DNA of 47,975 nucleotides, taken from NCBI GenBank assembly GCA_964408125.1, contig CAYOYC010000002.1, positions 1 to 47,975 of the forward strand, written 5' to 3'. Every line of letters starts with the position of its first letter. Positions within the stretch are counted from its first letter, which is position 1. The notes under the pieces are model-generated. The model saw nothing but the letters and a program-made list of their open reading frames with translations, ran no database searches and was not told the DNA's origin. The translations under genes were made by a program, and so were the position numbers. The stretch comes from Candidatus Woesearchaeota archaeon. GTDB taxonomy: Archaea; Nanobdellota; Nanobdellia; Pacearchaeales; GW2011-AR1. Positions 5,858-39,260 of the stretch are shown here, piece after piece.

Positions 5858-7228
5858 CTACATCTTTATTTTGCCTTTAAATTGTTTGGCAAACTTAGCC
5901 ATCATCTTTTTATCGATTTTTCCTTCTTGGAGTCCGGTCATTGAAGATTGAGATTTCATTAGTTCGTTAATCATTTTATATTGTTTCAATAGTTCTCTGA
6001 TTTCGGATGTTGTTGTTCCGGATCCCCTTGAGACTCTTTGGATCCTAGTTGTTTGTTTGTCGAATAATTCGGGGTTTTCAACTTCCTCTTTTGTCATTGA
6101 TTGAATAGCATACTTCCAGTGTTTCATTTTTTCTTCTTGTTTTTGCATAACATCTTTTGGAACTTTTGCTGCAGCATTTCCAAATCCAGGAATCATGCTC
6201 ATTATTTTATCCATACTTCCCATTTGTCCCATTGATTCAAGTTGAGAATATAAATCGTGTAAATTGAATTTTCCTTCTTTTAATCTTGCTTCGATTTTTT
6301 CTTGCTGTTTATCATCCACCGCAGAACGAACTTTTTCTAATAATCCTTCTAGATCTCCCATTCCCAATAGTCTTGAGATGAAAGAAGTTGGATTAAATAT
6401 TTCAAATTCGTGGATTTTTTCTCCAGTACCAATAAAGAAGACCGGAGCGTTTGTTTCGGCGCAAGCGGTTAAAGCGCCACCCGCTTTAGCTGTACCGTCC
6501 ATTCTTGTTATAATTACTCCGTCTATAGAAAGTGCTTTTTGAAATTCTTGTGCTTGTGTTTTTGCAGTTTGTCCGATATCTGCAGGAAGAACTAAAATTC
6601 TGTGGGTTGGTTTTATTTTTTTCTCGATTGATTTTATTTCAGAAACTAAATCCTCGTTTAATCCATCTCTGCCTGCCGTATCTATTAGAACTAAATCATA
6701 GTCTTTTAAGTCTTCTTCATATTGTTTTATTATCTTTGCGGGATCTTTTTCTTTTTCATCTATGAAAGCTTTAACCTTTGCTTTTTCACACATGTCTTGT
6801 AATTGTTTCATAGCTGCAGGTCTTTGGGTGTCTAAACCTAAAGCGCAGACTTTTCTCCCTCGTTTAGCGTAATAGAATGCTAATTTGGCTATACTTGTGG
6901 TTTTTCCGGATCCGTAGAGACCAAGTAATAATATTTTTTCTTTTTTTTCTAATTTTAGCTCTTTTCCTTTGCCAATTAGAATTGCGATTTGGTCGTGAAT
7001 TAATTTTATTAGTTGTTCTTTTTTGTCAATTCCCTTGATGCTTTCATCAATTGCAATTTCTCTGATTTTTTGACTTAGTTTAAAGACGAGTTCTACATTA
7101 ACGTCTGCTTCGATAAGTGCCCTTTGCAAATCCTTTATGACTACGTCTATGAGTTTCTTGTCTACAAAAATGGCGTTCGTTATCTTTTTTATTCCGCCTG
7201 TGAGTGCTTCTGATACTTTTTCTAACAT
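5858..7228 (-). CDS. srp54: Signal recognition particle protein SRP54
   Basis: NG domain with 'GLYGSGKTTSIAKLA', 'DTAGR' and 'TRMDG'. Met-rich M domain (MGQMGSMDKIMSMIPG). Confidence 0.95.
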   Translation of the reverse strand: MLEKVSEALTGGIKKITNAIFVDKKLIDVVIKDLQRALIEADVNVELVFKLSQKIREIAIDESIKGIDKKEQLIKLIHDQIAILIGKGKELKLEKKEKILLLGLYGSGKTTSIAKLAFYYAKRGRKVCALGLDTQRPAAMKQLQDMCEKAKVKAFIDEKEKDPAKIIKQYEEDLKDYDLVLIDTAGRDGLNEDLVSEIKSIEKKIKPTHRILVLPADIGQTAKTQAQEFQKALSIDGVIITRMDGTAKAGGALTACAETNAPVFFIGTGEKIHEFEIFNPTSFISRLLGMGDLEGLLEKVRSAVDDKQQEKIEARLKEGKFNLHDLYSQLESMGQMGSMDKIMSMIPGFGNAAAKVPKDVMQKQEEKMKHWKYAIQSMTKEEVENPELFDKQTTRIQRVSRGSGTTTSEIRELLKQYKMINELMKSQSSMTGLQEGKIDKKMMAKFAKQFKGKIKM

Positions 7229-7924: not shown

Positions 7925-9157
7925 TTATAACCCTAATCTTTTAATCATTTTATCTTTATCAAAAACTTCTAGGTCGTCGTATAGTTGACCGGTTCCTAGG
8001 AAATATATTGGTTTTTTAGTAATGTAAGATACAGAAAGTGCTGTTCCGCCTTTTTCGTCTATATCGGCCTTACTTAAGATTATACCATCGATTGAAATGT
8101 GTTGATTGAAAGAACGAGCTTGTTCGGTTGCATCGTTTCCAGTTATAGATTCTCCTAGAAATATTTTTTTATCTGGATTACAAACTTTGATTATTTTTTC
8201 CATTTCTTTCATTAGGCTTTCTTTTGTGTTCATTCTTCCGGCGGTGTCTATGAGAACTACATCGATTGCGTGTTTCTTTGCATAAATTATTGCCTCGAAG
8301 CCCACGGATGCTGGATCTGAGTTATAATCTTTCTTAATTATTGGAACATTTAATTTATTAGCATGAATTTCAAGTTGTTCAATTGCGGCTGCTCTAAATG
8401 TGTCTCCTGCTGCTAAACAAACAGAGAGTTTTTCTTTTTTTAATAAGTGAGCAACTTTTGCTATTGAAGTTGTTTTTCCAGAGCCATTTATTCCCACGAA
8501 AGCGATTACATATGGTTTTTTATTTTTCAAGCTTTCCCTTATTTCTTTTATCAAGTTTGGAGGATTGATTAGAATTTCTTCTAGTGCTTCTTTTAGTTTT
8601 GTTTCAATACTTACTTCAGATAAATTTTTACCAACTAAATCGTGTTTTAATTTCCCTCTTATGAATTCAACTACTTCGTAGGCGACGTTATTCTGGAGCA
8701 TTATCATTTCTAGTTCTGTGAAAAGTTCGTCGAATCTTTCTTCTGTAACTTTTTTCTTAAATTTGTCGAAGAAAGAGTGTTGTTCCGTAGGTTCCTCTTT
8801 GGGTATTTCGTTTTTCTCTTCTGCGTGGGAGAATAATTTTTTGAAAAATCCCTTCTTATTGGGATTATCTTGCAAAGCTTCTATTCGAGCCTCGGGAGAC
8901 TCTATTGGTTGTTCTTTTTTTATTTCTTCTACTATTTTTTCAGATAATTCTCTTTCTTTTTTGTCTTGCTTGGGTGTTCTTTTCTTTTTTTCTGTTTTTG
9001 GGGTTTTAGTAGGAGTTTTGCTCCTTGGCTTTATTTTGGTTTGTTTTGGTTTTACGGGTGGAGTTTTCCCAATGGGATGATCTTGTGAGGCCTCTGAAAA
9101 TTCTTCCTTTAGCTTTTCTTTCCAGCTGTGTAGTTTTTCTTTAAGGAATTTGAACAT
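7925..9157 (-). CDS. ftsY: SRP receptor FtsY
   Basis: 'GINGSGKTTSIAKVA', 'DTAGR' and 'SKADID'. A Lys/Pro/Thr-rich N-terminal A-domain precedes the NG domain. Confidence 0.95.
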   Translation of the reverse strand: MFKFLKEKLHSWKEKLKEEFSEASQDHPIGKTPPVKPKQTKIKPRSKTPTKTPKTEKKKRTPKQDKKERELSEKIVEEIKKEQPIESPEARIEALQDNPNKKGFFKKLFSHAEEKNEIPKEEPTEQHSFFDKFKKKVTEERFDELFTELEMIMLQNNVAYEVVEFIRGKLKHDLVGKNLSEVSIETKLKEALEEILINPPNLIKEIRESLKNKKPYVIAFVGINGSGKTTSIAKVAHLLKKEKLSVCLAAGDTFRAAAIEQLEIHANKLNVPIIKKDYNSDPASVGFEAIIYAKKHAIDVVLIDTAGRMNTKESLMKEMEKIIKVCNPDKKIFLGESITGNDATEQARSFNQHISIDGIILSKADIDEKGGTALSVSYITKKPIYFLGTGQLYDDLEVFDKDKMIKRLGL

Positions 9158-12045: not shown

Positions 12046-12297
12046 ATGAAGGTGATTGGATTTATATTGGTTGCGTTAGGAATTTTACTTGGCGCATGTT
12101 CTAAAATAATTCCCTTGCAAAATTTTGCTGTTAAAATTGGATTTTCTTCTATAGTTTTGAGTGCGTGGGGAATATATATAGCCGGAGGATTGGTCGTTAT
12201 TGGTTTACTGGTTTTGATTCTAGTTAAGGATACGAATGGGACGAAAGAGGTTCCAATTTACCAAGGCGATAAAGTTGTTGGATATAGAAGGCACTGA
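12046..12297 (+). CDS. Small membrane protein
   Basis: Three hydrophobic segments. The tail is KEVPIYQGDKVVGYRRH. Confidence 0.5.
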   Translation: MKVIGFILVALGILLGACSKIIPLQNFAVKIGFSSIVLSAWGIYIAGGLVVIGLLVLILVKDTNGTKEVPIYQGDKVVGYRRH

Positions 12298-12299
12298 GG

Positions 12300-12788
12300 C
12301 TATTTTAGGGTTTTTATTAATTTGTTAATTGGAGTATCTAAAAGGATTAATAAAAGAGTTATGCCTACGAGGATATATTTTGATTCGTTGGTTTCAAATG
12401 AGAAAGTGGTGGAATCTTTAAATGTGATGAATACTTGTATTATTAGGAAAATGGCTAGTAGTGACTTTCTTCCGACCGCAGACATATGATTCTTATGGGC
12501 TATTATTAATATAATTAATAGTGGAATTATAAAAAATAGTATAAGCGCTATAGTTTTGAATGGTAGTATATATGTGTATATAATCCAGCTTTCTTTCATA
12601 AAAAATACGGACATAAAAGATATACACACGCTTATGAGTGCGTTTATTTTTTTATTGTCTTTAAATAAGTTGACATAAGTAAGTAGGGAATAAACCACAA
12701 TGAAAATAAGAATTAGAACCAGTATTAGGATTAGGTCTTGGTTAGCTATGTATTTTTCTGTTATGCCTGTTAGGAAATTGTCAAACAT
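12300..12788 (-). CDS. Polytopic membrane protein, member of the local paralog array
   Basis: 4-5 TM segments. The central block YSLLTYVNLFKDNKKINALISVCISFMSVFF aligns with the next gene's YSGMSVAKFPQNSGLRFLLSLIIGFLAVVM. Confidence 0.6.
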   Translation of the reverse strand: MFDNFLTGITEKYIANQDLILILVLILIFIVVYSLLTYVNLFKDNKKINALISVCISFMSVFFMKESWIIYTYILPFKTIALILFFIIPLLIILIIAHKNHMSAVGRKSLLAIFLIIQVFITFKDSTTFSFETNESKYILVGITLLLILLDTPINKLIKTLK

Positions 12789-12837
12789 GTGTTTTAGAGG
12801 ATAGGGTCTTTTTTATAGGTTTTGTTTTAACTTAAAA

Positions 12838-13719
12838 ATGAAATGGAGAAATATTTATAAAGGTATAAGTTGTTTGTTTTTCATGGATAAAAAGTTTGGT
12901 GTATTGTTAGTTGTTCTTTTGGTTGTATCCTTGTTCGTAATAAGTATACAGAGTGCTAGTGCAGCAGAGTTTAAGGATACAAAGGTTGGAAAACTTCTTT
13001 TAAATGTTTTTTGGGCGGAAAGTGATGGCGGGGATTTAACAAGTGACGATATGAATACATTGGGGGTTATTACAAGATGGATGATGTTGCTCCTTGTTAT
13101 CTTGCTAATATATTCTGGTATGAGTGTGGCTAAGTTCCCACAGAATTCGGGATTGAGATTTTTACTTTCCTTAATTATTGGGTTTTTGGCGGTTGTAATG
13201 ATTAATAATTCTGAATTTATTACATTACTTCAGTCGTATAAGGCGCTGGGATTAACTATTTCTATTTTGTTGCCTATGATTGCTCTTGCATTTATTACCT
13301 ATTCTGTTTCGATATCGATGAATAGTTTTGGTATTTTATTACAGAGATTGGCATGGCTGATTTATTCTATATTTTTGTTTATTAAAATTGGTGGAATGTT
13401 GTTATTGAAGATGTGGAGTTCATATGTCATTTTCCCTTCTGTAGATAATGTACCAACGTGGATGTATAGAGTGGTTCCCTTTATTTTTGGAAAGGAATAT
13501 GGTGATATGGGGGATATAGTTTCTAGCATGGATACTATAGTAATGGTTATGCTATTGGTTGTTACTGTCGCAGTATTTATGTGGTTTGTAATTATGAATG
13601 AAAAGACGGTTAGGTGGATTGCAAATGCTACGCAGGTTTCTGATTTAGATAGATATAAAGACAAAGTAGAAAGGTCTTCTGGTAAGGTAAACGTTGACGC
13701 AGAGGCAACGAAGAAATAA
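12838..13719 (+). CDS. Polytopic membrane protein, member of the local paralog array
   Basis: Signal/TM segment (..ISIQSASAAEF) and multiple TM helices. An alternative start is ATG 12883, because a TATA at 12853-12862 lies about 26 nt upstream of it. Confidence 0.6.
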   Translation: MKWRNIYKGISCLFFMDKKFGVLLVVLLVVSLFVISIQSASAAEFKDTKVGKLLLNVFWAESDGGDLTSDDMNTLGVITRWMMLLLVILLIYSGMSVAKFPQNSGLRFLLSLIIGFLAVVMINNSEFITLLQSYKALGLTISILLPMIALAFITYSVSISMNSFGILLQRLAWLIYSIFLFIKIGGMLLLKMWSSYVIFPSVDNVPTWMYRVVPFIFGKEYGDMGDIVSSMDTIVMVMLLVVTVAVFMWFVIMNEKTVRWIANATQVSDLDRYKDKVERSSGKVNVDAEATKK

Positions 13720-13755
13720 GGATAGGATTATAAATATTGTTTTTCTATTTTTTAT

Positions 13756-14991
13756 ATGGTGTTAAACAAAAGAAAGAGTGCGATTTATTTTGTATTGGCC
13801 TTGTTTTTTATTTTCCAAATTATTAGTCTAATAGGTTTTTCTAATGCGGAGGAAGCAGTGATAAGTTTTACATTTAACGCTGGAGATGTTATAATATACG
13901 ATAGTCATGCTTATAAATTTTTGAAAAATACTGGAGATATTAAGGGTATAGATAAAAAGAGTGTGCTCAATGAATACATTCTAAAATTGGGTGAAGATTC
14001 AGAGAATTTTAATAAAACATTTATTAGGCTTAATAGATCGGAGGAGTGTGTTGCATTGAGGGAGAATTATGTGGATAATAATGAAATTACATATAAACCT
14101 GGAGATAATCCTTGGCTGAGTAAGGATTTCTGGGAAGCGTTTTTTTATGTAGACCCGTGTTCTTTGGATATGTTTCAAGACAGTGTGGGTAGGGGTTGGA
14201 ATTTTACAAAGAACCAAACAAGTATCAAGATAGGTTGGATGTTTGGAACAAATACTTTTTCTGGCGAGAGTAAATTATTCCCAATGCCCTTAGCTTTTTT
14301 CCCGTTTAGAATATGGTCCGTTTATCCATTAAAAAGAATTATTGAGGAGGGGGATGGATTTGACTTGGGAGATTTTGCTTTTATCCTTGTATTGGCCTTT
14401 GTTTTTGTTATATCGAATTTAATTGTTGGGTTCTTTATTCAAAAATTGACAAGGTCCCACTGGGGTTATTTAAAAAAAATAATTGTAGGGGCAGTAGCAA
14501 TCGCATTTATTCCTGGATTTTTTATGACTAGAAATAGCTTGTTTGCATTTATGTGTTTAATATTTTTTACTATAATGCTTTGGATTAGGATGGATTATTT
14601 GATGAAAAAGAAATATAGTAGGGGTTTTTCTTTTAATCTATTGAATTTATATGGGTCGTTGTTTCCGGCCAGGGTTCCGGCCGCGAGAAGTTTAACATTT
14701 TCCCTGATGGATAATTTTGAGAGTCGACTCTACTCTGTTGAATTTATTCTTTTCCTTCTTTATCCATTTTTAGGCTCCGTTCCTGTAATAAATGTTATAC
14801 TATCATTTTTAACTTTAGAAGTTTTATTTGCACCGTTATTCTGGAGGGCGTTACTTTGTACGTTTGTTTTGTTTATGCTAGTACAGTTTTGGCCGATGAT
14901 ATCTAGATATAATAAGAAGAGAAGGTTGTACAAAAAGGCTATGGAAAAGGTAGCCGGAGAAGAAGTTCTGAAGGAAATGGGTCGTGCTTAA
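13756..14991 (+). CDS. Polytopic membrane protein with ~190-aa N-terminal ectodomain, paralog array member
   Basis: Signal sequence, then a soluble N-terminal part, then TM helices. The C-terminal module is SVPVINVILSFLT ... ISRYNKKRRLYKKAMEKVAG. Confidence 0.65.
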   Translation: MVLNKRKSAIYFVLALFFIFQIISLIGFSNAEEAVISFTFNAGDVIIYDSHAYKFLKNTGDIKGIDKKSVLNEYILKLGEDSENFNKTFIRLNRSEECVALRENYVDNNEITYKPGDNPWLSKDFWEAFFYVDPCSLDMFQDSVGRGWNFTKNQTSIKIGWMFGTNTFSGESKLFPMPLAFFPFRIWSVYPLKRIIEEGDGFDLGDFAFILVLAFVFVISNLIVGFFIQKLTRSHWGYLKKIIVGAVAIAFIPGFFMTRNSLFAFMCLIFFTIMLWIRMDYLMKKKYSRGFSFNLLNLYGSLFPARVPAARSLTFSLMDNFESRLYSVEFILFLLYPFLGSVPVINVILSFLTLEVLFAPLFWRALLCTFVLFMLVQFWPMISRYNKKRRLYKKAMEKVAGEEVLKEMGRA

Positions 14992-15021
14992 ATATTTAAA
15001 CGTTAATTCTATTGAATTAGT

Positions 15022-15885
15022 ATGAGTTGGTGGGAATCATTTATTAATTTCTCTGGGAAGGAGGTTATTGATAGTGGTAGTTATATTTTTGGGATAGTTA
15101 TATTAATCGCAATTTTTGCGTTGTTGTTTTTTTTATCGAAGAAGAGTAAAATTAGCAAGGGTTTTTTGTCGGCTGTGATTATTATTTTGGTTGCATTTTC
15201 CATTTATTGGGGCATGCTTGGAATAAAAAGTTGTGTTATCACATCTGATCAGTTGGCGAAGGCCGCCAATGGTACGGGGTTTATGAATAGCACTCTTTGG
15301 CCAGCTTGGAACTGGATGAGGGGCAACGTTTTGGGTTGTGGCAAGGAATTGGGATGGGGCGGCAGGCTTTTGCGTGATGTTGGCAAGGTGTTAGGATTTG
15401 AACAGACCATGGGAGATTTCTTCTTAGATTTTCTAACTGGATTTGTCGCGGGAATATTTTTGTGGTTAATTTATATTTTAGCTTTCGAGTCTGAAAAAAT
15501 AGGACAACTTTTTAGAACAAAAATGAAAAATAATTTGTATATTCCCGGAAAAGAAAACATGGGTAAACTTAAATCAAGTTGGCTATCTATTATTGCTAGT
15601 GGGATTATTCCATGGAAGGCGATTGTTATTGGTGCATTTTATGCAGTGCTTTTACAAATACCTTTCTTAAAAACTGCTATTGAGTTTATCACGTTTAGTA
15701 AGTTTTTAGGTGTAGAGATAGGTATTCCGGTTTTAATTAGAGCAATAATAATTGCATTTTATTTTGGATTATTGCCTACAGCAATTGAATCGTATAGCAG
15801 ATATAAGATTAGAAAGGAATTATATACTAAATTACTGGAAGTAAAGGCTGGAGTTAAGGCTGCAAGAACGCTTGGGAGTCAATAA
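15022..15885 (+). CDS. Polytopic membrane protein, paralog array member
   Basis: C-terminal module QIPFLKTAIEFITF ... ESYSRYKIRKELYTKLLEVKAG. Confidence 0.65.
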   Translation: MSWWESFINFSGKEVIDSGSYIFGIVILIAIFALLFFLSKKSKISKGFLSAVIIILVAFSIYWGMLGIKSCVITSDQLAKAANGTGFMNSTLWPAWNWMRGNVLGCGKELGWGGRLLRDVGKVLGFEQTMGDFFLDFLTGFVAGIFLWLIYILAFESEKIGQLFRTKMKNNLYIPGKENMGKLKSSWLSIIASGIIPWKAIVIGAFYAVLLQIPFLKTAIEFITFSKFLGVEIGIPVLIRAIIIAFYFGLLPTAIESYSRYKIRKELYTKLLEVKAGVKAARTLGSQ

Positions 15886-16622
15886 TGAAAAAATTATTGT
15901 TTCTTTTCTTATTGTTTTTTTTATCTTTTGTAGTTGTTTCGGCAGAATTGAGTAAAACTGAAATAGATGTGATAAATAGTAATTATTCTGCTGGGAAAAA
16001 TGATGTTAGTTTTTTGGGAAGATATTATTTGGCTCTCAAACAGAGCGATATTTCTGTTTGGGGAATTTTAAGTTTTGAAAGAAGTTCTTGGAATGAGTTA
16101 GAAGATGTTTCTAAATTTATATCTGGAGATTTGCTGGGGTTTGATGGTTATCAAAAATTTAATAATTCTGAATATGGTTTAATTGTGGGATTTTTTGCAG
16201 GATTAATTTTATGGATTTTTTGTAAATTTAGAAATCTTTATTTAGTGTTATGCTCTTTTGTTAATCAAAAACAATATAAGTCGTATGATCCGGAAAAGGA
16301 CTTGAAATTAAGGACGAGTGTAGAGTGGATTAATTTTATGGCGGGAAGATTTTGGAAGGTTTTTTTAGTAGCAATCGTATTTTTTGTTTTAATGTATATT
16401 CCTATTTTAAACAGAATTGTTCAGATATTAAGTTTTCAATTTCTAGACATTAGTATTCTGGCTCATTCACTTATTCTTTGTATATTAATTGGGATTTTAC
16501 CCCAGCTAATACAAAATTATTCTAATTATAGAATAAAAATACATCTCGAGAAAAGGCTTTTAGATATGAAGGCTGGTGCAAGAAAGCAAGAAATTGAAGG
16601 GCAAGTTGTTAGAAGAAGATAG
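15885..16622 (+). CDS. Polytopic membrane protein, paralog array member
   Basis: The start overlaps the upstream stop by 1 nt. Signal sequence present. C-terminal module YIPILNRIVQILSF ... QNYSNYRIKIHLEKRLLDMKAG. Confidence 0.65.
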   Translation: MKKLLFLFLLFFLSFVVVSAELSKTEIDVINSNYSAGKNDVSFLGRYYLALKQSDISVWGILSFERSSWNELEDVSKFISGDLLGFDGYQKFNNSEYGLIVGFFAGLILWIFCKFRNLYLVLCSFVNQKQYKSYDPEKDLKLRTSVEWINFMAGRFWKVFLVAIVFFVLMYIPILNRIVQILSFQFLDISILAHSLILCILIGILPQLIQNYSNYRIKIHLEKRLLDMKAGARKQEIEGQVVRRR

Positions 16623-16623
16623 T

Positions 16624-17718
16624 TTAGGAAGCACCTGGTCGGTGCATTCGTGCTAATAGTATTCTGATTAGTAGACTTTCGGGGTCCTCGTTTTGACGGT
16701 CGTTATTAAGTGTTCTTAATAATTGTGTTGCTTGTATATATTTTGCTAAATCTTCTATTCCCGCGCCAGGTGCAAGTCCCAATTGTATATTTCCATTTTC
16801 ATCTGTTTGAACTCCGAACTTCGGAGCACTTTGTTTTTGTTTCTTTGCAAATAAGTCGTATGCTTCGTTTATTAATCCGTTTTGTATGGAGTAAGCAAAT
16901 AGTGTGTTAGCATCAGTAATTCCTGCCGTTTTAAGTTGTGCAGCTGTAGCTTCATATTTTTTCATTCTTTTTGTATCAGCTAGGCCATTTGCGAGTCTTC
17001 CTATTGGGCTTGGGTGAGTTTGCGCATAAGCTTGTGCTGCATTTCTATAGTCGTTTATGTCATTAGCTACCGGCTTCGTGTCGATTCCAAGCCTATATTT
17101 TGCTCTTTCAAGTAAATTTCTTGAATGCCTTACTAGTTTAATCTGGTATGGGTTTAGTTTCTTTATTTTTTTATTGAAAATATCTTCTTCTCTTTTAAAT
17201 TTCCTTCTTTCCTTCTTTCTTAAGCCATCCAATGTTTGTTCAGCTTGTGTTGCTTGTGCTTTTCTTGCTTCTCTTGGATCTATAATTCTACTAGGATCGT
17301 CAATCTCCTTTCCTTCGTTTACTTTCGAGTAGAAATTATCTAGCATTTGATGATATTCCTGGCAGGATGTATAAGCATCGATCCCTTTTGATGTAGCTGC
17401 TATGGCTAGTTTTGCTCCTTCTCTAATTCCTCTTCCGACGTATTTAACTCCGCTCCATAAGTAGCTTAATCCAGTTTCAGCTGCTGCTTTAGTGTGAGCG
17501 TATAATGGTTTTGATAAAAGCGTACCGCCTGCTAAAGCACCGACTGGTCCGCCTAGTAAATATCCCGTTGTGGCACCCAGAACTCCAGTAGCACCAACAT
17601 ATTTCTCGAGGCTATTTTTTAATTCTGTTCTTCTTGCATCCTTTTCTGCCCTCATGTCATTGGCTAAAGCCATAAGAGATGCTGCCCTTGGGCTCATGTA
17701 TGAATATGTGTTTGTCAT
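16624..17718 (-). CDS. Hypothetical Ala/Gly/Lys-rich protein with a glycine-zipper segment
   Basis: GATGVLGATTGYLLGGPVGALAGGTLL near the N-terminus. The rest is hydrophilic and helical-looking. G+C is visibly higher than in the flanking genes. Confidence 0.6.
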   Translation of the reverse strand: MTNTYSYMSPRAASLMALANDMRAEKDARRTELKNSLEKYVGATGVLGATTGYLLGGPVGALAGGTLLSKPLYAHTKAAAETGLSYLWSGVKYVGRGIREGAKLAIAATSKGIDAYTSCQEYHQMLDNFYSKVNEGKEIDDPSRIIDPREARKAQATQAEQTLDGLRKKERRKFKREEDIFNKKIKKLNPYQIKLVRHSRNLLERAKYRLGIDTKPVANDINDYRNAAQAYAQTHPSPIGRLANGLADTKRMKKYEATAAQLKTAGITDANTLFAYSIQNGLINEAYDLFAKKQKQSAPKFGVQTDENGNIQLGLAPGAGIEDLAKYIQATQLLRTLNNDRQNEDPESLLIRILLARMHRPGAS

Positions 17719-17896
17719 GTTTTTTGTTGTAAAAAGAGTTTTGGTGTTTTATTTTCCTGGCTCTTTTTGTATGATTATTCTAAGTGGAGGGGGTATTTAA
17801 ATCTTTTGTTTTTGTTACTACTACATAGTTTACATAAAGTGTTTAATTAAATGCTGTTCTGGATAGATTTAAAAGTTTTCAATTTGTCTATATTTT

Positions 17897-18784
17897 ATGA
17901 AAAGAGTAATGAAGTTATTTTTTATGTTATTGCTAGTGATTAATATATTTTCATTTGTTATAGGGGTTAGCGCTAGTATTGATTCCCAGGTGGAGGATGT
18001 TGCCAATACTGCAGACAAGAGTATTCAGGAAGTAGATAGATTTCTTAGTAGTAGTGAGGCGAGAAGTGAATATTTAAAACAAGAATGGCTTAAAATTACA
18101 CAGTCTCAACCGTTTGGTAAATATATTTTACCAGTTCATAATTATCTAATTTTACATAAGCAGGTTTTTGGATATCTTTTGGGAATAAATTATCAGTTCT
18201 CTTGGAAGTTTTTTTTAGCCTTTATATTTTGGGTCGTTCTTGTAGTGTTTTGCTTTAGAATAATTAGGGGGCTTGTTATGTTTATAATGGCTTCAATTAT
18301 ATTAGTAAAAAGGTCTGAACGCGATTTTGGGGAACTTATTAGAAGGCCAGGTGTGATGATGTGTATAAATTTGATTTTATTTTTGGCTATAGTTTTGTTG
18401 ATTTCTGTGGTAAGGGTACCATTGGGGCTAGCAATCGTGGTTTATGGCATATTTTCTAATGAAACTAGTTTGATTATGAGAATAATATATGTGGCGGTTA
18501 TAATTGGAGGAGTGTATTTGTTAAATATGATTTATAAGGAAATGGTTTACTTTTCTAAGATATATAAAGATGCGAGGAAACAAAAGACGATAAGTGATAC
18601 GGTAAAGAGGATAGAGGATGAGTTGGAGGATTTTAAATCGGGGAAGAAAAAAATTATTGCACAAGATTCTATGGAGATGGCAGGTGCCAAATCTTTTTCA
18701 GAAGAAGAACAACAGCAAGCTGACGAAGAAGAGGCATTGGCTCAAGCCAGAGAAGACGTTGATGGAATTACAGACGAAGAGTAG
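17897..18784 (+). CDS. Polytopic membrane protein with acidic C-terminal tail, probable distant paralog array member
   Basis: Signal sequence and TM helices. 'RVPLGLAIVVYGIFS ... YKEMVYFSKIYKDARKQ' has the same layout as the 13756/15022/15885 proteins. Confidence 0.6.
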   Translation: MKRVMKLFFMLLLVINIFSFVIGVSASIDSQVEDVANTADKSIQEVDRFLSSSEARSEYLKQEWLKITQSQPFGKYILPVHNYLILHKQVFGYLLGINYQFSWKFFLAFIFWVVLVVFCFRIIRGLVMFIMASIILVKRSERDFGELIRRPGVMMCINLILFLAIVLLISVVRVPLGLAIVVYGIFSNETSLIMRIIYVAVIIGGVYLLNMIYKEMVYFSKIYKDARKQKTISDTVKRIEDELEDFKSGKKKIIAQDSMEMAGAKSFSEEEQQQADEEEALAQAREDVDGITDEE

Positions 18785-19761: not shown

Positions 19762-20043
19762 ATGGCACAAGGATCAGTAGCACCTGAGGGTAAACACGGC
19801 GGGGTTGGATCAATAAGCAAGCTAGAAGAAAAAATTCTCGGGATATCGATGGGAATAGGGATAGCTCTTTCTGGTAGTGTATTAACTTATCTAGGGGTAA
19901 ACAACTTTACAGAAAAGTTAGCAAATAATGCATCCTATCAAGAAATAACTAGCTCAGCACTCGGAATCGGGTTTGGAGGGGCAATTATTGCTGCAGGAAT
20001 AGGTTTTGCAGCATGTGCGTTAAAAGAGCAATACAAAAAATAA
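19762..20043 (+). CDS. Small Gly-rich membrane protein (2 TM)
   Basis: Shine-Dalgarno GGAGGTGA upstream. Segments GISMGIGIALSGSVLTYLG and ALGIGFGGAIIAAGIGFAACAL. Confidence 0.5.
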   Translation: MAQGSVAPEGKHGGVGSISKLEEKILGISMGIGIALSGSVLTYLGVNNFTEKLANNASYQEITSSALGIGFGGAIIAAGIGFAACALKEQYKK

Positions 20044-20063: not shown

Positions 20064-21428
20064 TTATTTTTTCTTTCTGTTCTTCATCCAGAAAAATCCA
20101 GCAACTACACCAATCAAAATAAGAACTCCCCCAATCCACGAAGAAGCCGTATTTGATAAATTTGAAATTGCGTTTCCAGTAAGATTAGTTTGGAGGAGAA
20201 ATAAACCCGAAACTAATCCTAATATGGAGATTAAATGCATTGGTTTTAAAACTTTTTCCAATCCCCCTAGAACGCTCATTTGTAGTCTTCTTCCAAAACT
20301 CATCTTTTCCCTTAATTCTTTTATTCTGTCTAAAAGATAATCTTCAGAATATCTTCTATCTTCCCAAGATTTTCCAGATCCAATTACTAATATTTTTTTA
20401 TATCTATCGATCGTAACTTTTCTAAGTTTATCGATTTTTACTTCAGAATCAATTCCTTCTAAATCCATATCTAAGTACAGTCTCATTTCATATAAACATT
20501 TAATAGCTTCACTCATTTTATTTTCTTCTATGAGCTTATCTGTTTTAACTAGCATTCTATTAAAGTAAGCATCATCTCCATAAGGTTTTTTAGGGAAGTG
20601 TGTTTTTATTAGGACATCACTTCCAGATTCAAACCAATTACCATCGTTATAACGAGATTCATTAACTTCAATAGGTAGGTTATACTTTTTTGATATTGTA
20701 TCTCTATAATATTTAATTTTTGCCTCTTTTTTATCTTTAGGTGTATTTGTGGGAATTCTAATTACTACTTTTGCAATACTATCGGGTGTTGCGTGATTCA
20801 CATATCCTATTCCCTCTCCTCCACTTGGGCGAGTTTTTGAGTTGAATAGTTTCCCATTGTTGGGCACAAAGCAAATGCTATATTTATCTCCAGAAGTTAT
20901 ATCTTTTTTGCTTTTAACTCCCCAATGTGCTCGAATGGAATCTAGTTCAAGGAGGATATTGTCTCCATATAGTGGGCGTCCGTGAAAACTTCCATAAAAG
21001 CCCGTATCTAGAATATTTATCAGGCTATCGTATGAGTCTGGCATTATATGGCTCCTTCCTGCTGTGTGAGCCCCTGAACTAATTGCATGATTTGCAACCA
21101 ATGGTTGAAAAACCATATAGTTTTCTTTCCTTTTTACCTGGGCATATTTACTACGCCAAAGTCTTGATTGGTCCCCAAATCTAATTTCGTTATTAGGATC
21201 GTCACCGGTATATTCAATAGTAAGTATTTCGTCATGAGGGTCTTTTGATTTTGAAAAATAATCTTTTAAACTCATTCCGTTAAATTGCAATTTGTCTGTC
21301 CCATAAACCTCTCTAAGATTTCTATTTACTTCGTCTTCAGTTAAATTTCCTAGTTCGCTAATGGGAATTCGGTAAACAAATCCTTTTGAACCTCTTTTTA
21401 ATCCCGTAACTTTTCTTCTTATTGGCAT
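20064..21428 (-). CDS. Hypothetical 454-aa protein, cytoplasmic-looking N-terminal domain with C-terminal TM anchors
   Basis: No signal peptide. The C-terminus is HLISILGLVSGLFLLQ...SSWIGGVLILIGVVAGFFWMKNRKKK. Confidence 0.55.
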   Translation of the reverse strand: MPIRRKVTGLKRGSKGFVYRIPISELGNLTEDEVNRNLREVYGTDKLQFNGMSLKDYFSKSKDPHDEILTIEYTGDDPNNEIRFGDQSRLWRSKYAQVKRKENYMVFQPLVANHAISSGAHTAGRSHIMPDSYDSLINILDTGFYGSFHGRPLYGDNILLELDSIRAHWGVKSKKDITSGDKYSICFVPNNGKLFNSKTRPSGGEGIGYVNHATPDSIAKVVIRIPTNTPKDKKEAKIKYYRDTISKKYNLPIEVNESRYNDGNWFESGSDVLIKTHFPKKPYGDDAYFNRMLVKTDKLIEENKMSEAIKCLYEMRLYLDMDLEGIDSEVKIDKLRKVTIDRYKKILVIGSGKSWEDRRYSEDYLLDRIKELREKMSFGRRLQMSVLGGLEKVLKPMHLISILGLVSGLFLLQTNLTGNAISNLSNTASSWIGGVLILIGVVAGFFWMKNRKKK

Positions 21429-21522: not shown

Positions 21523-21570
21523 TAAGAAAGCCTGCAGAGGGATTCAAACCCCCGACCCTCAGTTTCTTTG
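21523..21570 (-). repeat. Second copy of the 48-nt repeat, inside and just 3' of the intact tRNA-Thr gene
   Basis: Identical to 18802-18849. Confidence 0.85.
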
Positions 21571-21624
21571 TCTGTTTATAACATTAATACAAAACTGATG
21601 CTCTATCAACTGAGCTATGCAGGC
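21529..21624 (-). tRNA. tRNA-Thr (anticodon UGU) with a 23-nt intron at the canonical 37/38 position
   Basis: The reverse complement folds as GCCTGCA-TA-GCTC-AGTTGATA-GAGC-A-TCAGT-TTTGTA[TTAATGTTATAAACAGACAAAGA]A-ACTGA-GGGTC-GGGGG-TTTGAAT-CCCTC-TGCAGGC-T. UUUG/CAAA can form a BHB-type central helix flanked by 3-nt bulges. Confidence 0.85.
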
Positions 21625-24246: not shown

Positions 24247-24317
24247 GATTCCATAGTATAATGGCAGAACAAAACCTTGACGTGGTTTAGACCCAGGTTC
24301 AATTCCTGGTGGAATCA
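24247..24317 (+). tRNA. tRNA-Val (anticodon GAC)
   Basis: Acceptor GATTCCA/TGGAATC, anticodon stem AAACC/GGTTT, loop TTGACGT, T arm CCAGG-TTCAATT-CCTGG. The D stem has one mismatch. Confidence 0.85.
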
Positions 24318-24368
24318 TTATTAGACGTCACAAATATATTTATATATCTAGTTTTTCTTGTTTTCTTA

Positions 24369-26204
24369 ATGGGAGTGATGAACAAAAGAGGTCAGGTAAC
24401 TATATTCATAATTTTAGCAATAGTTTTAGTTGTGGGTATTATTTTGTATTTTGTTTTTAATGGAGGTTCTTCGTCTGTAATCTCAAAGGATCTACAATCT
24501 GGGGAGGATGCTTATAAGTCGTGTATAACCGAACGGGTTAAGCTTGGAATTAGTTTGCTTGGGCAACAGGGCGGATATATATATTTAGATGAGTTGGAAT
24601 TTTATTCTGGAAGCCTGTATATGCCATCGTCTTCTCAGTTGGATTTTTATGGGAATGCGGTTCCATATTGGATGTTTGTTTCTGGAAATAATATTTTGAG
24701 AGAGCAGAAGCCCACAAAACAAAGTATGACTACAGAGTTAAGAAGATTCATATCAGAAGGTATTAATTCTTGTAATTTTGATAACTTAAATAGCGAGGGA
24801 ATTTATGTTGATGTTTACGACGGAAATATAGAGGTGGATATAAGAGATACATCAGTGGAAGTTACGCTAAATAATCCAATTTATATTTCATTTGAGGATC
24901 AATCGGCTACAATTAGTAATCATAAAATATCTATAAATTCAAAATTGGGTAAATTTTATAATTTAGCTACTGTGGTTTATAATAAAGAAAAAGAAGATGC
25001 ATTTTTGGAAGAATATGGATTAGATGTAATGCAACTGTATGCACCAGTTACTGGAGTTGAATTTACGTGTACTCCTATGTTTTTTAATGATGCTCAGGTC
25101 AAGAAAAATATTAGCCAGGGTTTGGAAGATAATATTGCATCTCTGAAAGTTTCTGGAAACTATTATGATTTAAATGATCCGCAACATTCTTATTTTGTCG
25201 TCGATGTTGGAGAAAACGTGGACGAAAATGTTAATTTTGTTTATTCTAAAAATTGGCCAACTGGAATAGAAATGTTTGGAGATAGACTTGTTCAACCAAT
25301 AGGAAATCAGCAGGGGCTTGGGATGTTTGGATTGTGTTTTGTTCCGTATCATTTTGTTTATAATATTAATTTCCCCGTTTTAATCCAGTTTTATGACAAT
25401 GGTGAACTTTTCCAATTTGGAGTCGTTGCTGTTATAAAGAATAGTCAGTCTAGAGAGGCGTTGTTGGCTGATGAAGAAACCCTTTCTGGCGAGCAGATAT
25501 GTGAAAATTCTAATGCAAATATAGATGTTTCTGTGTATGATTTAGATTTAAATCCAATTGTGGCAAATTTAAGATTTAGTTGTCTTGGCCAATCTTGCGA
25601 ATTAGGCAATTCTGTAAGTGGTTCTGGAAATTTCGATGTGCCAATGTGCGTCAATGGTGTTTTAGATGCTTATGTAGATGGATATGCACCAGCTTCTGTT
25701 AGTGTGTCTACGAATAGAGAGACGAGTGCTAATATATTAATGAAGAAAATTTATGATGTGAATGTTTCGGTGGGCAATCAGGATAAAATGAGTATTGTTT
25801 TTAGTTCTTCAGACTATAGTTCTGTATTAAATTATCCAGATGAAAAATCTGTTAAATTAGTAGAGGGTGGGTATAATATAACGGCATTTGTTTACAAAAA
25901 TACGTCGATTAATTTTGCTGGATTAAAAGATAGAAAGTGTTTGGATGTTCCATCTAGTAGTATTGGTGGAGTATTTGGGGCAACAGAGCAAAGGTGTTAT
26001 GATATTGATATACCAGCTCAGGAAATTGATTCGGCATTAGTTGGAGGAGGGAAGGCCTTTGATTATTTTACAGAGGAACAATTTTTAGATTCTCAATATT
26101 TGAAAATATCTGTCCCTATGTTTGGTGTTCCACAAAAAATAGAAGATTTACAAAACAATTATTTAGAATGGGAGGTTTCAAGGATTGACTTGACTTTTGA
26201 ATGA
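24369..26204 (+). CDS. Large extracellular protein with prepilin-like (class III) signal peptide
   Basis: The N-terminus MGVMNKRGQVTIFIILAIVLVVGIILYF has a basic stretch, then G, then a hydrophobic helix. A TATA at 24334-24347 favours ATG 24369. The listed 24309 start overlaps tRNA-Val. The stop overlaps the next ATG (ATGA). Confidence 0.7.
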   Translation: MGVMNKRGQVTIFIILAIVLVVGIILYFVFNGGSSSVISKDLQSGEDAYKSCITERVKLGISLLGQQGGYIYLDELEFYSGSLYMPSSSQLDFYGNAVPYWMFVSGNNILREQKPTKQSMTTELRRFISEGINSCNFDNLNSEGIYVDVYDGNIEVDIRDTSVEVTLNNPIYISFEDQSATISNHKISINSKLGKFYNLATVVYNKEKEDAFLEEYGLDVMQLYAPVTGVEFTCTPMFFNDAQVKKNISQGLEDNIASLKVSGNYYDLNDPQHSYFVVDVGENVDENVNFVYSKNWPTGIEMFGDRLVQPIGNQQGLGMFGLCFVPYHFVYNINFPVLIQFYDNGELFQFGVVAVIKNSQSREALLADEETLSGEQICENSNANIDVSVYDLDLNPIVANLRFSCLGQSCELGNSVSGSGNFDVPMCVNGVLDAYVDGYAPASVSVSTNRETSANILMKKIYDVNVSVGNQDKMSIVFSSSDYSSVLNYPDEKSVKLVEGGYNITAFVYKNTSINFAGLKDRKCLDVPSSSIGGVFGATEQRCYDIDIPAQEIDSALVGGGKAFDYFTEEQFLDSQYLKISVPMFGVPQKIEDLQNNYLEWEVSRIDLTFE

Positions 26205-32708: not shown

Positions 32709-32808
32709 AAGTTTGTTACCAAAAAGACATTTATAAATCTTTTGGTTTTGTTACTATTAAGTAATTAATACAAAATGAAGAGGTGTTTTTTATTCGCAAA
32801 ATAATTAA

Positions 32809-32891
32809 TGGGGAGAAGAGGACTCGAACCCCTGTAAGCGTAAGCTACGACGGCCTAAACGTCGCCCGTTTGACCACTCCGGCATCTCCCC
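32809..32891 (-). tRNA. tRNA-Leu (anticodon UAG), class II with long variable arm
   Basis: The reverse complement folds as GGGGAGA...CGACG-TTTAGGC-CGTCG-TAGCTTACGCTTAC-AGGGG-TTCGAGT-CCTCT-TCTCCCC-A. Confidence 0.9.
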
Positions 32892-32942
32892 ATGATAGAA
32901 TTAGGGGTTTTGACTAGTATAAAAAGATTTGTTTTAGGGAAA

Positions 32943-38597: not shown

Positions 38598-39075
38598 GTG
38601 AAAGCACACGAGAAGAAGTCTAATTCTGTTTATGGATTTTATATCTGTAACAAGAAGGTTATAGAAGAGTTTGGGAAGTTTGGATTTACTAATAATAAAA
38701 CATATACGGTAAGAATACCAGAGGAGATCGTAAAGAGTGATAATGAAAAAATATGGAGTGCTTTTATTAGGGGATTTGCAGATTGCGATGGTTGTTTTTC
38801 AAATGAGTGTTATGCTAAATAGATTGGATATAAAACATACAATAAATATATCAGCGAATAATGGTGTTAATGAGGCGCCTAGATATAGAATTATGGTTCG
38901 AGGGCCAGAAAGAGTAGAGGAATTTATTAATAAGGTTGGGTTTCATAATCCTGTTCAAATTACTAGGTATTTAGTTTGGAAGAAATTTGGATTTTGTCCG
39001 CCAAAGATAGGTATTGAAAAAAGAAAATTAATTCTTAATGGAAAGTTAGATCCAAAATATTTCTATAGAAGTTAA
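38598..39075 (+). pseudogene. LAGLIDADG homing-endonuclease remnant, N-terminally truncated and frameshifted
   Basis: 'IWSAFIRGFADCDGCF' is a LAGLIDADG-type motif. The frame breaks at a T5 run (38795-38799) and continues in the overlapping ORF (RLDIKHTINIS...RIMVRGPERVEEFINKVGFHNP). Stops close the frame upstream of 38559. Confidence 0.65.
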
Positions 39076-39076
39076 A

Positions 39077-39151
39077 CGCCCGAGCGAGGATTTGAACCCC
39101 GGACCTACGCATTAGAAGTGCATCGCTCTATCCAGGCTGAGCTACCCGGGC
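39077..39151 (-). tRNA. tRNA-Arg (anticodon UCU)
   Basis: The reverse complement folds as GCCCGGG-TA-GCTC-AGCCTGGATA-GAGC-G-ATGCA-CTTCTAA-TGCGT-AGGTC-CGGGG-TTCAAAT-CCTCG-CTCGGGC-G. Confidence 0.9.
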
Positions 39152-39260
39152 ATAAAAATACTATCAAAAAATCGTATTTAAAATTATGCTTTTGGGATAA
39201 ATCGGGTTCTCTATATTCAATAGGGGGTAAATATTTAAAGGAAACATAATTTAGAATAGT

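What the first reader, a model, noticed from the sequence alone, without database searches (positions are those of the whole stretch)
12046..18784. Tandem array of paralogous polytopic membrane proteins with a constant C-terminal module and unrelated ectodomains
Seven genes in this 6.7-kb stretch encode only membrane proteins that I cannot place in any family: 12046, 12300(-), 12838, 13756, 15022, 15885 and 17897.

**Shared C-terminal module.** The last ~100 aa of the 411-, 287- and 245-aa proteins align by eye. Each has a TM segment with '[IV]P[FIV][LI].(N/K)..[IV]..[IL][ST]F' (SVPVINVILSFLT, QIPFLKTAIEFITF, YIPILNRIVQILSF). Two more TM helices follow. Each ends in a basic amphipathic tail (ISRYNKKRRLYKKAMEKVAG, ESYSRYKIRKELYTKLLEVKAG, QNYSNYRIKIHLEKRLLDMKAG).

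**Weaker members.** The 293- and 295-aa proteins show the same layout more faintly (VVPFIF..., RVPLGL...YFSKIYKDARKQ). The 162- and 293-aa proteins share a central block.

**Variable part.** The N-terminal, presumably outward-facing, parts differ completely in length and sequence. Most genes have their own TATA about 25 nt upstream of the ATG.

**Interpretation.** A locally expanded family with a fixed membrane/cytoplasmic module and diversified exterior, in an otherwise streamlined genome, fits a surface-interaction, receptor or transport system. No ATPase or known secretion component is nearby.
Basis: partly seen in the sequence, partly recalled or inferred. Interest (0 to 1): 0.75.

Follow-up and report, generated by a model that had tools for sequence, protein, structure and literature searches.

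The report
Conserved eight-gene membrane-protein cluster of DPANN archaea
This stretch is a real, anciently conserved set of eight neighbouring genes, found in small host-dependent archaea (Pacearchaeota/Woesearchaeota), that probably builds one multi-subunit membrane complex unlike any known protein family, rather than a recently expanded array of variable surface receptors.

Summary
The genes are real. None matches any family in Pfam, NCBIfam, PHROGs, PADLOC, PDB sequences, or Foldseek searches of PDB and BFVD.

**Relationships among the proteins**
- The shared C-terminal module of the 411-, 287- and 245-aa proteins is confirmed (shuffle z = 5-22). A profile of it finds 212 relatives among 1.84 billion representative proteins.
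- The 162- and 293-aa proteins are a second paralogous pair (hhalign 92.9 %, E 3.7e-7).
- The 293- and 295-aa proteins are not related to the first family (hhalign 2-9 %).

**Main correction**
This is not a local expansion. The named records are Pacearchaeota and Woesearchaeota. Orthology is one-to-one, the flanking housekeeping genes vary, and there is no strain-level hypervariability.

**Best reading**
A lineage-specific, vertically inherited hetero-oligomeric cytoplasmic-membrane complex with a constitutive envelope role, such as transport or anchoring. Its function is not established. A link to type IV pilin-like surface structures is weak: a prepilin-like N-terminus in most p287 orthologs, and pilin/transglycosylase operons adjacent in two lineages. 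The fold and family are new, so interest is moderate to high, limited by the lack of any functional handle.

The parts
12046..12297 (+). E subunit (p83): small protein with 2 TM helices and a conserved basic C-terminal motif EVPIYxGxKxVGYRR(H)
   Evidence: Homologs of 73-93 aa lie immediately upstream of the B2 gene in L010, L016, L017, L020, L022, L026 and L027, and nearby in L006, L007 and L009. The alignment shows the conserved tail. A TATA-like hexamer sits at -29.
12300..12788 (-). B2 subunit (p162): polytopic protein (about 4-5 TM), no signal peptide, paralog of p293, transcribed divergently from it
   Evidence: Orthologs occupy the same position and strand in all loci that reach that far. 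Related to the p293 family: hhalign 92.9 %, E 3.7e-7; shuffle z 7.1/6.0. TATA-like hexamer at -29.
12883..13719 (+). B1 subunit (p293; the ORF opens at 12838 but Met16 at 12883 is the likely start): signal peptide, short ectodomain, about 5 TM, helical cytoplasmic tail. It is the best-conserved member.
   Evidence: 20 homologs were found by word-indexed profile search. Invariant residues include F85, P86, G100, E111, G123, P131, Q154 and W158. The AF2 model has pLDDT 73.6 and no Foldseek hit. A TATA-like hexamer at -29 from Met16 and the ortholog N-termini support the shorter start.
13756..14991 (+). A1 subunit (p411): Sec-type signal peptide, about 170-aa ectodomain, family-A C-terminal module (3 TM plus basic tail)
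   Evidence: BLASTP and shuffle statistics. Orthologs of 227-427 aa lie in the same slot. TATA-like hexamer at -28.
15022..15885 (+). A2 subunit (p287): two N-terminal TM helices here, where most orthologs carry a prepilin-like 'KRG + hydrophobic' N-terminus; about 60-aa ectodomain; family-A module
   Evidence: 46 of 65 A2-type representatives carry [KR][GA] followed by a hydrophobic stretch, against 12 of 56 A3 and 9 of 22 A1. TATA-like hexamer at -28.
15885..16622 (+). A3 subunit (p245): Sec-type signal peptide, about 70-aa helical ectodomain, family-A module. Its ATG overlaps the p287 stop codon.
   Evidence: The AF2 model has pLDDT 82 and pTM 0.68, with the module above 90. No Foldseek hit in PDB or BFVD. 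The start/stop overlap or near-abutment with A2 is conserved in L001, L003, L006, L007 and L009.
16624..17718 (-). D subunit (p364): basic (net +12 to +19), mostly helical, poorly conserved protein with a Gly-zipper-like hydrophobic segment (about residues 40-68).
   Evidence: The position is conserved in L001, L003, L006, L007, L009, L016 and L023. Weak sequence conservation: 24.6 % identity to L001, E 2e-20; alignment. Net charge. No TM segment at the hydropathy threshold used.
17897..18784 (+). C subunit (p295): signal peptide, about 70-aa ectodomain with the conserved motif SRxEYLKQxW, 3-5 TM, long charged tail ending in the conserved acidic motif EG[ILM]x[DK][DE][DE]
   Evidence: Ortholog alignment. 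Unrelated to families A and B. TATA-like hexamers at -30..-28.
12812..12859 (.). Divergent promoter region between B2(-) and B1(+), with one TATA-like box for each gene
   Evidence: TATAAA lies at -29 of p162, and TTTATA/TATAAA at -29..-27 of Met16 of p293.

Best explanation
**What it is.** Bases 12046-18784 hold a self-contained, vertically inherited eight-gene module of Pacearchaeota/Woesearchaeota-type DPANN archaea.

**What it most likely encodes.** I infer that it encodes one hetero-oligomeric cytoplasmic-membrane complex made of:
- three ancient paralogous subunits (A1, A2, A3), each with an N-out ectodomain, 3 TM helices and a basic cytoplasmic helix;
- two paralogous polytopic subunits (B1, B2) carrying conserved polar intramembrane residues;
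- a multi-TM subunit with an acidic C-terminal peptide (C);
- a small 2-TM subunit with a conserved basic tail (E);
- a basic peripheral cytoplasmic protein (D).

**How it likely works.** In family A the near-invariant residues are Gly, Pro and Trp, which suggests a structural, pseudo-symmetric helix bundle. The B pair is the more likely channel or transport core. The charged tails would assemble on the cytoplasmic face.

**Likely role.** A constitutive, lineage-specific envelope function, such as a conduit or transporter, or an anchoring platform for surface structures. It is not a fast-diversifying receptor array.

**Status of each step.**
- Shown: the paralogies, one-to-one orthology, fixed gene order, individual promoters, and the absence of known homologs.
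- Inferred: complex formation, topology and role.
For: - **Fixed order and orientation.** E+ B2- B1+ A1+ A2+ A3+ D- C+ recurs in about 18 distinct loci whose flanks differ: GINS/S3Ae, FEN1/PolB, Trm5, ribosomal proteins, RadA.
- **One-to-one orthology** of every member.
- **A2/A3 coupling.** The start/stop overlap or near-abutment is conserved.
- **Paralogy statistics**.
- **Family A breadth.** 212 clusters at 50 % identity, always with the module at the C-terminus.
- **Topology.** Signal peptide, ectodomain, TM helices, and KR-rich loops and tails.
- **Structure.** A confident AF2 model of A3 with a 54-residue TM3-plus-tail helix.
- **Conserved residues.** Structural residues in family A and polar TM residues in family B.
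- **Native composition.** GC equals that of the rest of the window, and each gene has a native leaderless-type TATA.
- **Not mobile or defensive.** No phage, defence or mobile-element signal.
- **Not hypervariable.** Proteins are identical or nearly identical across samples and strains.
Against:
- No functional domain, ATPase or substrate-binding component is linked to the cluster.
- D is so poorly conserved that its membership rests mainly on position.
- Some divergent loci (L014, L016, L017, L020) have altered subunit composition.
- Gene-order conservation among related, streamlined genomes can persist without functional coupling.
- Each gene has its own promoter, so co-transcription is not demonstrated.
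Confidence: 0.55

Rival explanations
1. An accessory membrane platform or anchor for type IV pilin-like surface filaments, playing a role like PilN/PilO, GspL/M or ArlF/G. The A2 subunit would be a prepilin-peptidase substrate that stays in the membrane.
For: - 71 % of A2-type representatives start with a class-III-like 'MNKRG/KKG + hydrophobic helix', against 21-41 % in A3 and A1.
- In L002 and the L003 lineage the cluster directly follows an operon of at least 4-8 class-III-signal proteins. One of these is fused to an SLT lytic transglycosylase, and in L002 the operon also includes a Peptidase_A24 prepilin peptidase.
- The family-A profile weakly touches a type IV pilin N-domain in PDB (E 0.41, not significant).
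Against: - The window's own p287 lacks the [KR][GA] motif and has two N-terminal TM helices instead.
- Pilin operons are adjacent in only 2 of about 18 loci.
- No T2SSE ATPase, T2SSF platform or A24 peptidase appears in the annotated part of the 48-kb window, nor among the 25 most frequent Pfam families (of 43 matched) in 81 neighbouring genes of ten other loci.
- The N-terminal regular expression also matches ordinary Sec n-regions.
Confidence: 0.15
2. One reading: a locally expanded, diversifying family of surface receptors or adhesins with a constant membrane anchor.
For: Ectodomains of the paralogs are unrelated in sequence and length. Across distant orthologs they diverge faster than the module and carry indels: 11-28 % against 25-46 % identity.
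Against: - Copy number is fixed at three, with one-to-one orthologs in the same order across lineages. Identity ranges from about 60 % down to about 25-35 % over the module.
- Against the nearest genome, ectodomain and module are equally conserved.
- Proteins are identical across samples, and near-identical strains show no ectodomain-specific hypervariability.
- No adhesin, lectin or Ig-like domains appear in 102 family members.
Confidence: 0.07
3. Extremely divergent versions of a known housekeeping membrane machine that are simply beyond detection. Candidates are an Oxa1/YidC/DUF106-type insertase (N-out, 3 TM, basic tail), an ExbB/TolQ/MotA-type stator, or an Mce/Mla-like lipid importer (two paralogous permeases plus several paralogs with ectodomains, with the ATPase encoded elsewhere).
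For: - The topology of family A (N-out, TM1, cytoplasmic amphipathic helix, TM2, TM3, basic C-tail) resembles the Oxa1-superfamily core. That comparison rests on my own knowledge; the topology itself comes.
- The subunit logic resembles mycobacterial Mce operons (own knowledge).
- The genes sit in a core-genome neighbourhood.
Against: - No Pfam hit for 102 family-A or 22 family-B members, even at permissive E-values.
- No PDB sequence hit.
- Foldseek with a confident A3 model returns nothing with E below 5, and no YidC, EMC3, GET1, ExbB or MotA chain. The B1 model likewise returns nothing.
Confidence: 0.1
4. Functionally unrelated lineage-specific membrane proteins that stay adjacent only through inherited synteny in small, slowly rearranging genomes. 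There is no common complex.
For: Each gene has its own TATA box. Other housekeeping synteny (GINS, S3Ae, and the 631/1882-aa gene pair) is also preserved between the window and L003.
Against: - The flanking genes differ completely among loci while the internal order and orientation of all eight genes is retained.
- The A2/A3 overlap is conserved.
- Two sets of paralogs are kept side by side.
Confidence: 0.12

Closest known systems
Lineage-specific 'hypothetical' protein-family modules of Woesearchaeota/Pacearchaeota (modules 98 and 222 in Castelle et al. 2021, PMC8204110; general phenomenon in Meheust et al. 2022, PMC9258230)
   Same: Both describe families of unknown function restricted to these lineages, predicted to be mostly membrane-bound or extracellular. 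The eight families here very probably fall in such catalogues.
   Different: Those papers list families by co-occurrence. In the text I could read, they do not describe this gene cluster, its paralogy structure or its fixed order. I could not verify that these exact families are in their tables.
Oxa1/YidC/DUF106 (Ylp1) insertase superfamily
   Same: An analogy in topology only: N-out, three core TM helices with a cytoplasmic helix between TM1 and TM2, and a basic C-terminal tail. In eukaryotes the superfamily exists as several paralogs (own knowledge of the family; topology).
   Different: No sequence match to PF01956 or PF02096, and no structural match. Family A also has large signal-peptide-led ectodomains and the conserved motif 'QIPxLNxxIxxITxE' in TM2, which is not known from that superfamily.
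Type IV filament systems of archaea (pilins with class III signal peptides, PibD/EppA peptidase, ArlF/G- or PilN/O-like accessory membrane proteins)
   Same: A2 orthologs mostly carry a prepilin-like N-terminus. In two lineages the cluster abuts a pilin, SLT and prepilin-peptidase operon.
   Different: There is no secretion ATPase or platform protein in or near the cluster. The proteins are polytopic and cannot be extracted into a filament. The window's own A2 lacks the motif.
Mce/Mla-type lipid importers (YrbEA/B permease pair plus MceA-F paralogs, with the ATPase encoded elsewhere)
   Same: An analogy in architecture only: two paralogous polytopic proteins plus several paralogs that have different ectodomains, with no ATPase in the operon. 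Lipid import would be plausible for lipid-auxotrophic DPANN (own knowledge).
   Different: No MCE domain or MlaE homology. Here the conserved part of the paralogs is the membrane module, not the ectodomain.

Membership tests
Any curated protein family (Pfam-A, NCBIfam, PHROGs, PADLOC) | Score at or above the family's curated cut-off | tested here: not met
   No window protein reaches any cut-off. Among 102 family-A and 22 family-B members, no family is hit by more than 2 members. The same holds for D-slot orthologs.
Any solved structure (PDB) or viral predicted structure (BFVD) | Significant sequence-profile or fold similarity | tested here: not met
   hmmsearch of the A and B1 profiles against PDB gives best E-values of 0.41 and 0.09. 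Foldseek best E-values: 5.5 for A3 against PDB, 1.7 for B1 against PDB, 1.4 for A3 against BFVD; all TM-scores are at most 0.24. AlphaFold DB was not available.
Type IV filament (T4P / archaellum-like) system | PilB/ArlI-type ATPase (T2SSE) and PilC/ArlJ platform (T2SSF) encoded with the locus | tested here: not met
   Neither appears among the annotated genes of the 48-kb window, in the precomputed Pfam tables of L003, L006, L007, L010 and L013, or among the top 25 families of 81 neighbouring genes.
Type IV filament (T4P / archaellum-like) system | Class III (prepilin) signal peptide: [KR][GA] followed by a hydrophobic helix, plus a prepilin peptidase | tested here: inconclusive
   The motif is present in 46 of 65 A2-type representatives but absent from the window's p287. 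Peptidase_A24 is adjacent only in L002. Cleavage cannot be tested in silico.
Oxa1/YidC/DUF106 insertases | Sequence or fold match to the three-TM insertase core with a hydrophilic groove | tested here: not met
   No hit to PF01956, PF02096 or related models. No YidC, EMC3, GET1 or TMCO1 chain appears among the Foldseek results.
MotA/ExbB/TolQ stator family | Match to PF01618, or a fold match to ExbB/MotA | tested here: not met
   No Pfam hit and no Foldseek hit.
Mce/Mla lipid transport | MCE domain (PF02470) and MlaE/YrbE permease (PF02405) | tested here: not met
   No hit in any cluster protein or family member.
Mobile element, virus or defence island | Atypical composition, integrase or viral hallmark genes, phage or defence homologs, patchy distribution | tested here: not met
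   GC is 0.32-0.34, like the rest of the window. tblastn finds no match in 50,697 phage records. No PHROG or PADLOC hits. Neighbours are housekeeping genes and the cluster looks vertically inherited.

The most novel reading that the evidence does not exclude
The eight genes encode a previously unrecognised archaeal envelope machine, with new folds and no ATPase in the locus, that is part of the core genome of Pacearchaeota/Woesearchaeota. It could be the conduit through which these lipid- and nucleotide-auxotrophic cells take up host-derived molecules, or the membrane base of their pilin-like or giant-adhesin attachment apparatus.
Probability: 0.2. Interest if true: 0.85.

Novelty: categorically new. 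Interest (0 to 1): 0.55.

Why it matters
Pacearchaeota and Woesearchaeota are abundant, uncultivated, host-dependent archaea. How they attach to partners and acquire lipids and metabolites is unknown. A core-genome module of eight membrane proteins, conserved across the group and matching nothing known, is a concrete and testable candidate for a lineage-defining envelope function. It also adds at least two new membrane-protein families with confident or usable structure models. Family A alone has 212 clusters at 50 % identity. At the least, the families deserve names and Pfam/arCOG models. At best, they mark a new kind of cell-surface or transport machine.

Tried and rejected
- **Known families.** Pfam, NCBIfam, PHROGs and PADLOC scans of the window proteins, and Pfam scans of 102 family-A members, 22 family-B members and the D-slot orthologs, gave nothing.
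- **PDB by sequence profile.** Nothing significant. The one family-A hit, a type IV pilin N-domain, has E 0.41.
- **AF2 plus Foldseek.** Models of A3 (pLDDT 82) and B1 (pLDDT 73.6) found no match in PDB. The A3 model also found none in BFVD.
- **p293 or p295 as distant family-A members.** Rejected by shuffle controls and hhalign.
- **Phage or mobile origin.** Rejected.
- **Close-relative scans of GTDB representative genomes** with p287 and p293 found nothing. A profile scan found only two genomes, one Pacearchaeota and one Woesearchaeota. An alignment-based scan with family A failed because no stretch was conserved enough.
- **A HerA-like DUF87 ATPase** lies 2-4 kb from the cluster in 6 loci. 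I judged it housekeeping synteny: it is 61-66 % conserved, contains an intein in L007, sits on variable sides of the cluster, and is absent from this window.
- **Literature.** Five full-text searches found only generic mentions of lineage-specific unknown membrane families and no description of this cluster.
- **Not possible here.** Multimer prediction was also not possible.

Full report
**Setting**

The window is a low-GC (about 33 %) archaeal chromosome segment. It carries GINS51, TFIIB, ribosomal proteins S3Ae, S8e and S13/S15, SRP54, FtsY, TrmB, NDK and aminoacyl-tRNA synthetases. Relatives of the genes studied come from records titled Candidatus Pacearchaeota and Candidatus Woesearchaeota. 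The organism is therefore a DPANN archaeon of that group.

**The genes**

An eighth gene, at 16624-17718 on the minus strand (364 aa), lies inside the stretch and was omitted.

Hydropathy shows a common build for the five larger plus-strand proteins:
- an N-terminal signal peptide or anchor;
- an exterior segment of 40-170 aa;
- 3-5 TM helices;
- a charged C-terminal tail.

The other three differ. p162 is polytopic without a signal peptide. p83 has two TM helices. p364 has no segment above the TM threshold but carries a Gly-zipper-like hydrophobic stretch.

For p293 the likely start is Met16 (12883). Two things support this: the ortholog N-termini, and a TATA-like box 29 nt upstream of that codon.

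**Are the similarities real?**

| Pair | BLASTP | Shuffle z, whole sequence / 12-residue window |
|---|---|---|
| p245-p287 | E 1.6e-15 over 174 aa | 22.4 / 12.8 |
| p411-p245 | E 0.04 | 7.4 / 6.0 |
| p411-p287 | E 1.3e-4 | 5.4 / 5.1 |
| p162-p293 | none below E 1 | 7.1 / 6.0 |

The z values come from Smith-Waterman scores against 300 composition-preserving shuffles. Every other pair is indistinguishable from chance once local hydrophobicity is preserved. That includes p293 and p295 against the three-member family (window-shuffle z at most 2.2).

Profile-profile comparison agrees:
- p293 orthologs against p162 orthologs: 92.9 %, E 3.7e-7 over 99 columns.
- Family A against the p295 family: 8.5 %.
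- Family A against the p293 family: 2.4 %.
- The p293 family against the p295 family: 0.9 %.

The stretch therefore holds five families: A (p411, p287, p245), B (p293, p162), C (p295), D (p364) and E (p83). The "weaker members" are not.

**Conservation elsewhere**

Word-indexed searches found few relatives. An exhaustive profile search with the family-A module found 212 representative clusters at E below 1e-3 (135 below 1e-10). The module was at the C-terminus in the listed hits.

I fetched genomic contexts and scored them with HMMs of each family. The same arrangement, E+ B2- B1+ A1+ A2+ A3+ D- C+, appears in about 18 distinct loci. These include a 246-kb marine contig, Tara Oceans assemblies, groundwater assemblies and several MAGs.

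- Every window protein has a single best ortholog in the same slot.
- Flanks differ from locus to locus: GINS and S3Ae; FEN1 and PolB; Trm5/Tyw2; ribosomal-protein operons; RadA.
- The A2 stop and A3 start overlap or nearly abut in the window and in L001, L003, L006, L007 and L009.
- A few divergent loci show altered composition (L014, L016, L017, L020).

The cluster is thus a fixed, ancient, vertically inherited module. It is not a local expansion.

**Exterior parts**

The exterior parts are unrelated between paralogs. Over long distances they lose identity and change length faster than the membrane modules: 11-28 % against 25-46 %.

At short range the picture changes. Against the nearest genome (L001), exterior and module are equally conserved: 36/36 %, 58/60 % and 42/48 %. 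The proteins are identical across samples of the same population. Between near-identical strains there is no consistent ectodomain-specific excess of substitutions. I therefore see no signature of receptor-type diversification.

**Promoters**

Across 45 window genes, TATA-like hexamers concentrate at -30 to -26 from the start codon: 52 hits against at most 10 in any other 5-nt bin. This fits leaderless transcription. Six of the eight cluster genes have such a box. p245, which overlaps p287, and p364 do not. The 30-36-nt spacers between B1, A1 and A2 are just large enough for a promoter.

**Search for known relatives**

All of the following were negative:
- Pfam, NCBIfam, PHROGs and PADLOC for the window proteins.
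- Pfam for 102 family-A members, 22 family-B members and D-slot orthologs.
- PDB sequence profiles.
- tblastn against 50,697 phage records.

AlphaFold2 gave a confident model of p245 (pLDDT 82, pTM 0.68, module above 90) and a usable model of p293 (pLDDT 73.6). In the p245 model TM1 is a 32-residue helix. A cytoplasmic amphipathic helix carries the near-invariant Trp. TM2 is kinked at the invariant Pro of the motif 'IPxLN'. TM3 and the tail form one 54-residue helix.

Foldseek found nothing for p245 or p293 in PDB, and nothing for p245 in BFVD. The best E-values were 1.4-5.5 and TM-scores were at most 0.24.

Five full-text literature searches turned up only general statements. Woesearchaeota and Pacearchaeota are said to have lineage-specific modules of unknown, mostly membrane or extracellular families (PMC8204110, PMC9258230). 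I found no description of this cluster.

**What it probably is**

*Shown.* Eight genes in five families with two sets of ancient paralogs. Order and strand are invariant. Neighbourhoods are core-genome. Composition and promoters are native. There is no detectable homolog of known function.

*Inferred.*
- The products form one hetero-oligomeric complex in the cytoplasmic membrane.
- In family A the near-invariant positions are Gly, Pro and Trp (G85, G102, G106, W148, P173, G203, P206 in p245). This is typical of helix packing rather than catalysis. The tails are consistently basic, net +2 to +8.
- In family B the invariant positions include polar residues in or next to TM helices (E111, Q154, S162). 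This makes B1/B2 the better candidate for a channel or transport core.
- C ends in the conserved acidic peptide EG[ILM]x[DK][DE][DE].
- D is strongly basic.
- E has the conserved tail EVPIYxGxKxVGYRR.
- These charged elements plausibly assemble on the cytoplasmic side.

I put about 0.55 on "one constitutive, lineage-specific envelope complex". The specific role, whether conduit, transporter or anchor, is unresolved.

**The pilin lead**

Most A2-type proteins elsewhere begin with 'MNKRG' or 'KKG' followed by a hydrophobic helix: 46 of 65, against 12 of 56 A3-type and 9 of 22 A1-type. That is the signature of archaeal class III prepilin signal peptides.

In L002 and the L003 lineage the cluster directly follows an operon of class-III-signal proteins. 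One of those proteins is fused to an SLT lytic transglycosylase. In L002 the operon also contains a Peptidase_A24.

Several points argue against a strong link:
- The window's own p287 lacks the motif.
- Only 2 of about 18 loci show the adjacency.
- No T2SSE or T2SSF gene is near any cluster.

I keep this as a rival at about 0.15.

**Other rivals**
- A diversifying receptor array, 0.07.
- Undetectably divergent known machines, 0.10. Oxa1-like topology and Mce-like operon logic are analogies only, and every membership test failed.
- Mere synteny without a complex, 0.12.

**Verdict**

The feature is real and lies outside every family I could test. Its importance is capped by the absence of any functional handle. 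The next decisive steps are multimer modelling with genome-paired alignments, phyletic profiling across complete Nanobdellota genomes, and expression or proteomic data.

Noticed in passing
window 24309-26204 (+) and 26201-31849 (+): The 631-aa ORF overlaps tRNA-Val at its annotated GTG start. Its likely start is Met24 (about 24378), giving a canonical class III prepilin-type signal 'MNKRGQ|VTIFIILAIVLVVG'. It overlaps the start of a 1882-aa giant protein. Neither has a Pfam hit. The pair is syntenic in L003 (a 613-aa protein starting 'MRDKRGQVTIF', plus one of at least 2021 aa; 39-42 % identity). It may be a pilin-like protein coupled to a giant surface protein.
   Followed up: partly
L003 1932-7766; L002 1-3944: Directly upstream of the cluster in two lineages lies an operon of about 8 (L003) or 4 (L002) proteins with class III signal peptides. 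In L003 it includes a 380-aa protein that combines a pilin-like N-terminus with an SLT lytic transglycosylase domain. In L002 it includes a Peptidase_A24 prepilin peptidase. This could be a peptidoglycan-cutting 'modular pilin' in an archaeon that lacks peptidoglycan.
   Followed up: partly
window, all genes: TATA-like hexamers are sharply positioned 26-30 nt upstream of start codons genome-wide: 52 hits in that bin against at most 10 elsewhere. This implies mostly leaderless mRNAs and gives a handy criterion for choosing start codons.
   Followed up: yes
window 21529-21624 (-) and 32808-32892 (-): Rfam reports a 96-nt tRNA at 21529-21624 that ARAGORN does not report, so it probably contains an intron. 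Conversely, ARAGORN's tRNA-Leu(TAG) at 32808-32892 is not in the Rfam gathering-threshold list.
   Followed up: no
L007 17988-20918 (-); L009 25-1059; L016 2794-4104; L017 3194-4504; L020 4480-5784; L027 3693-4997: A highly conserved (61-66 % identity) HerA-like DUF87 P-loop ATPase of about 434 aa lies 2-4 kb from the cluster in six loci, on variable sides. In L007 it is interrupted by an intein. It is absent from this 48-kb window. I judged it housekeeping synteny rather than a partner ATPase, but this is not excluded.
   Followed up: partly
window 38737-39075 (+), next to tRNA-Arg 39076-39152: This 112-aa ORF matches only the C-terminal 62 residues of a 269-aa LAGLIDADG_3 protein of L003 (39 % identity, E 4e-14). 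It is probably a remnant or fragment of a homing endonuclease.
   Followed up: no
window 19762-20043 (+) and 20064-21428 (-): Two further membrane-associated proteins without a family lie just downstream of the cluster: a Gly-rich 93-aa protein with 2 TM helices, and a 454-aa protein with C-terminal TM segments and a KKK tail. Neither has counterparts next to the cluster in other loci, so they are not part of the conserved module.
   Followed up: partly
window 5858-7228 (-) and 7925-9157 (-): SRP54 and its receptor FtsY lie within 2 kb of each other and 3-6 kb upstream of the cluster. The same arrangement occurs in the JGI 3300059473 contig. It is lineage synteny and is not seen in other loci.
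   Followed up: no
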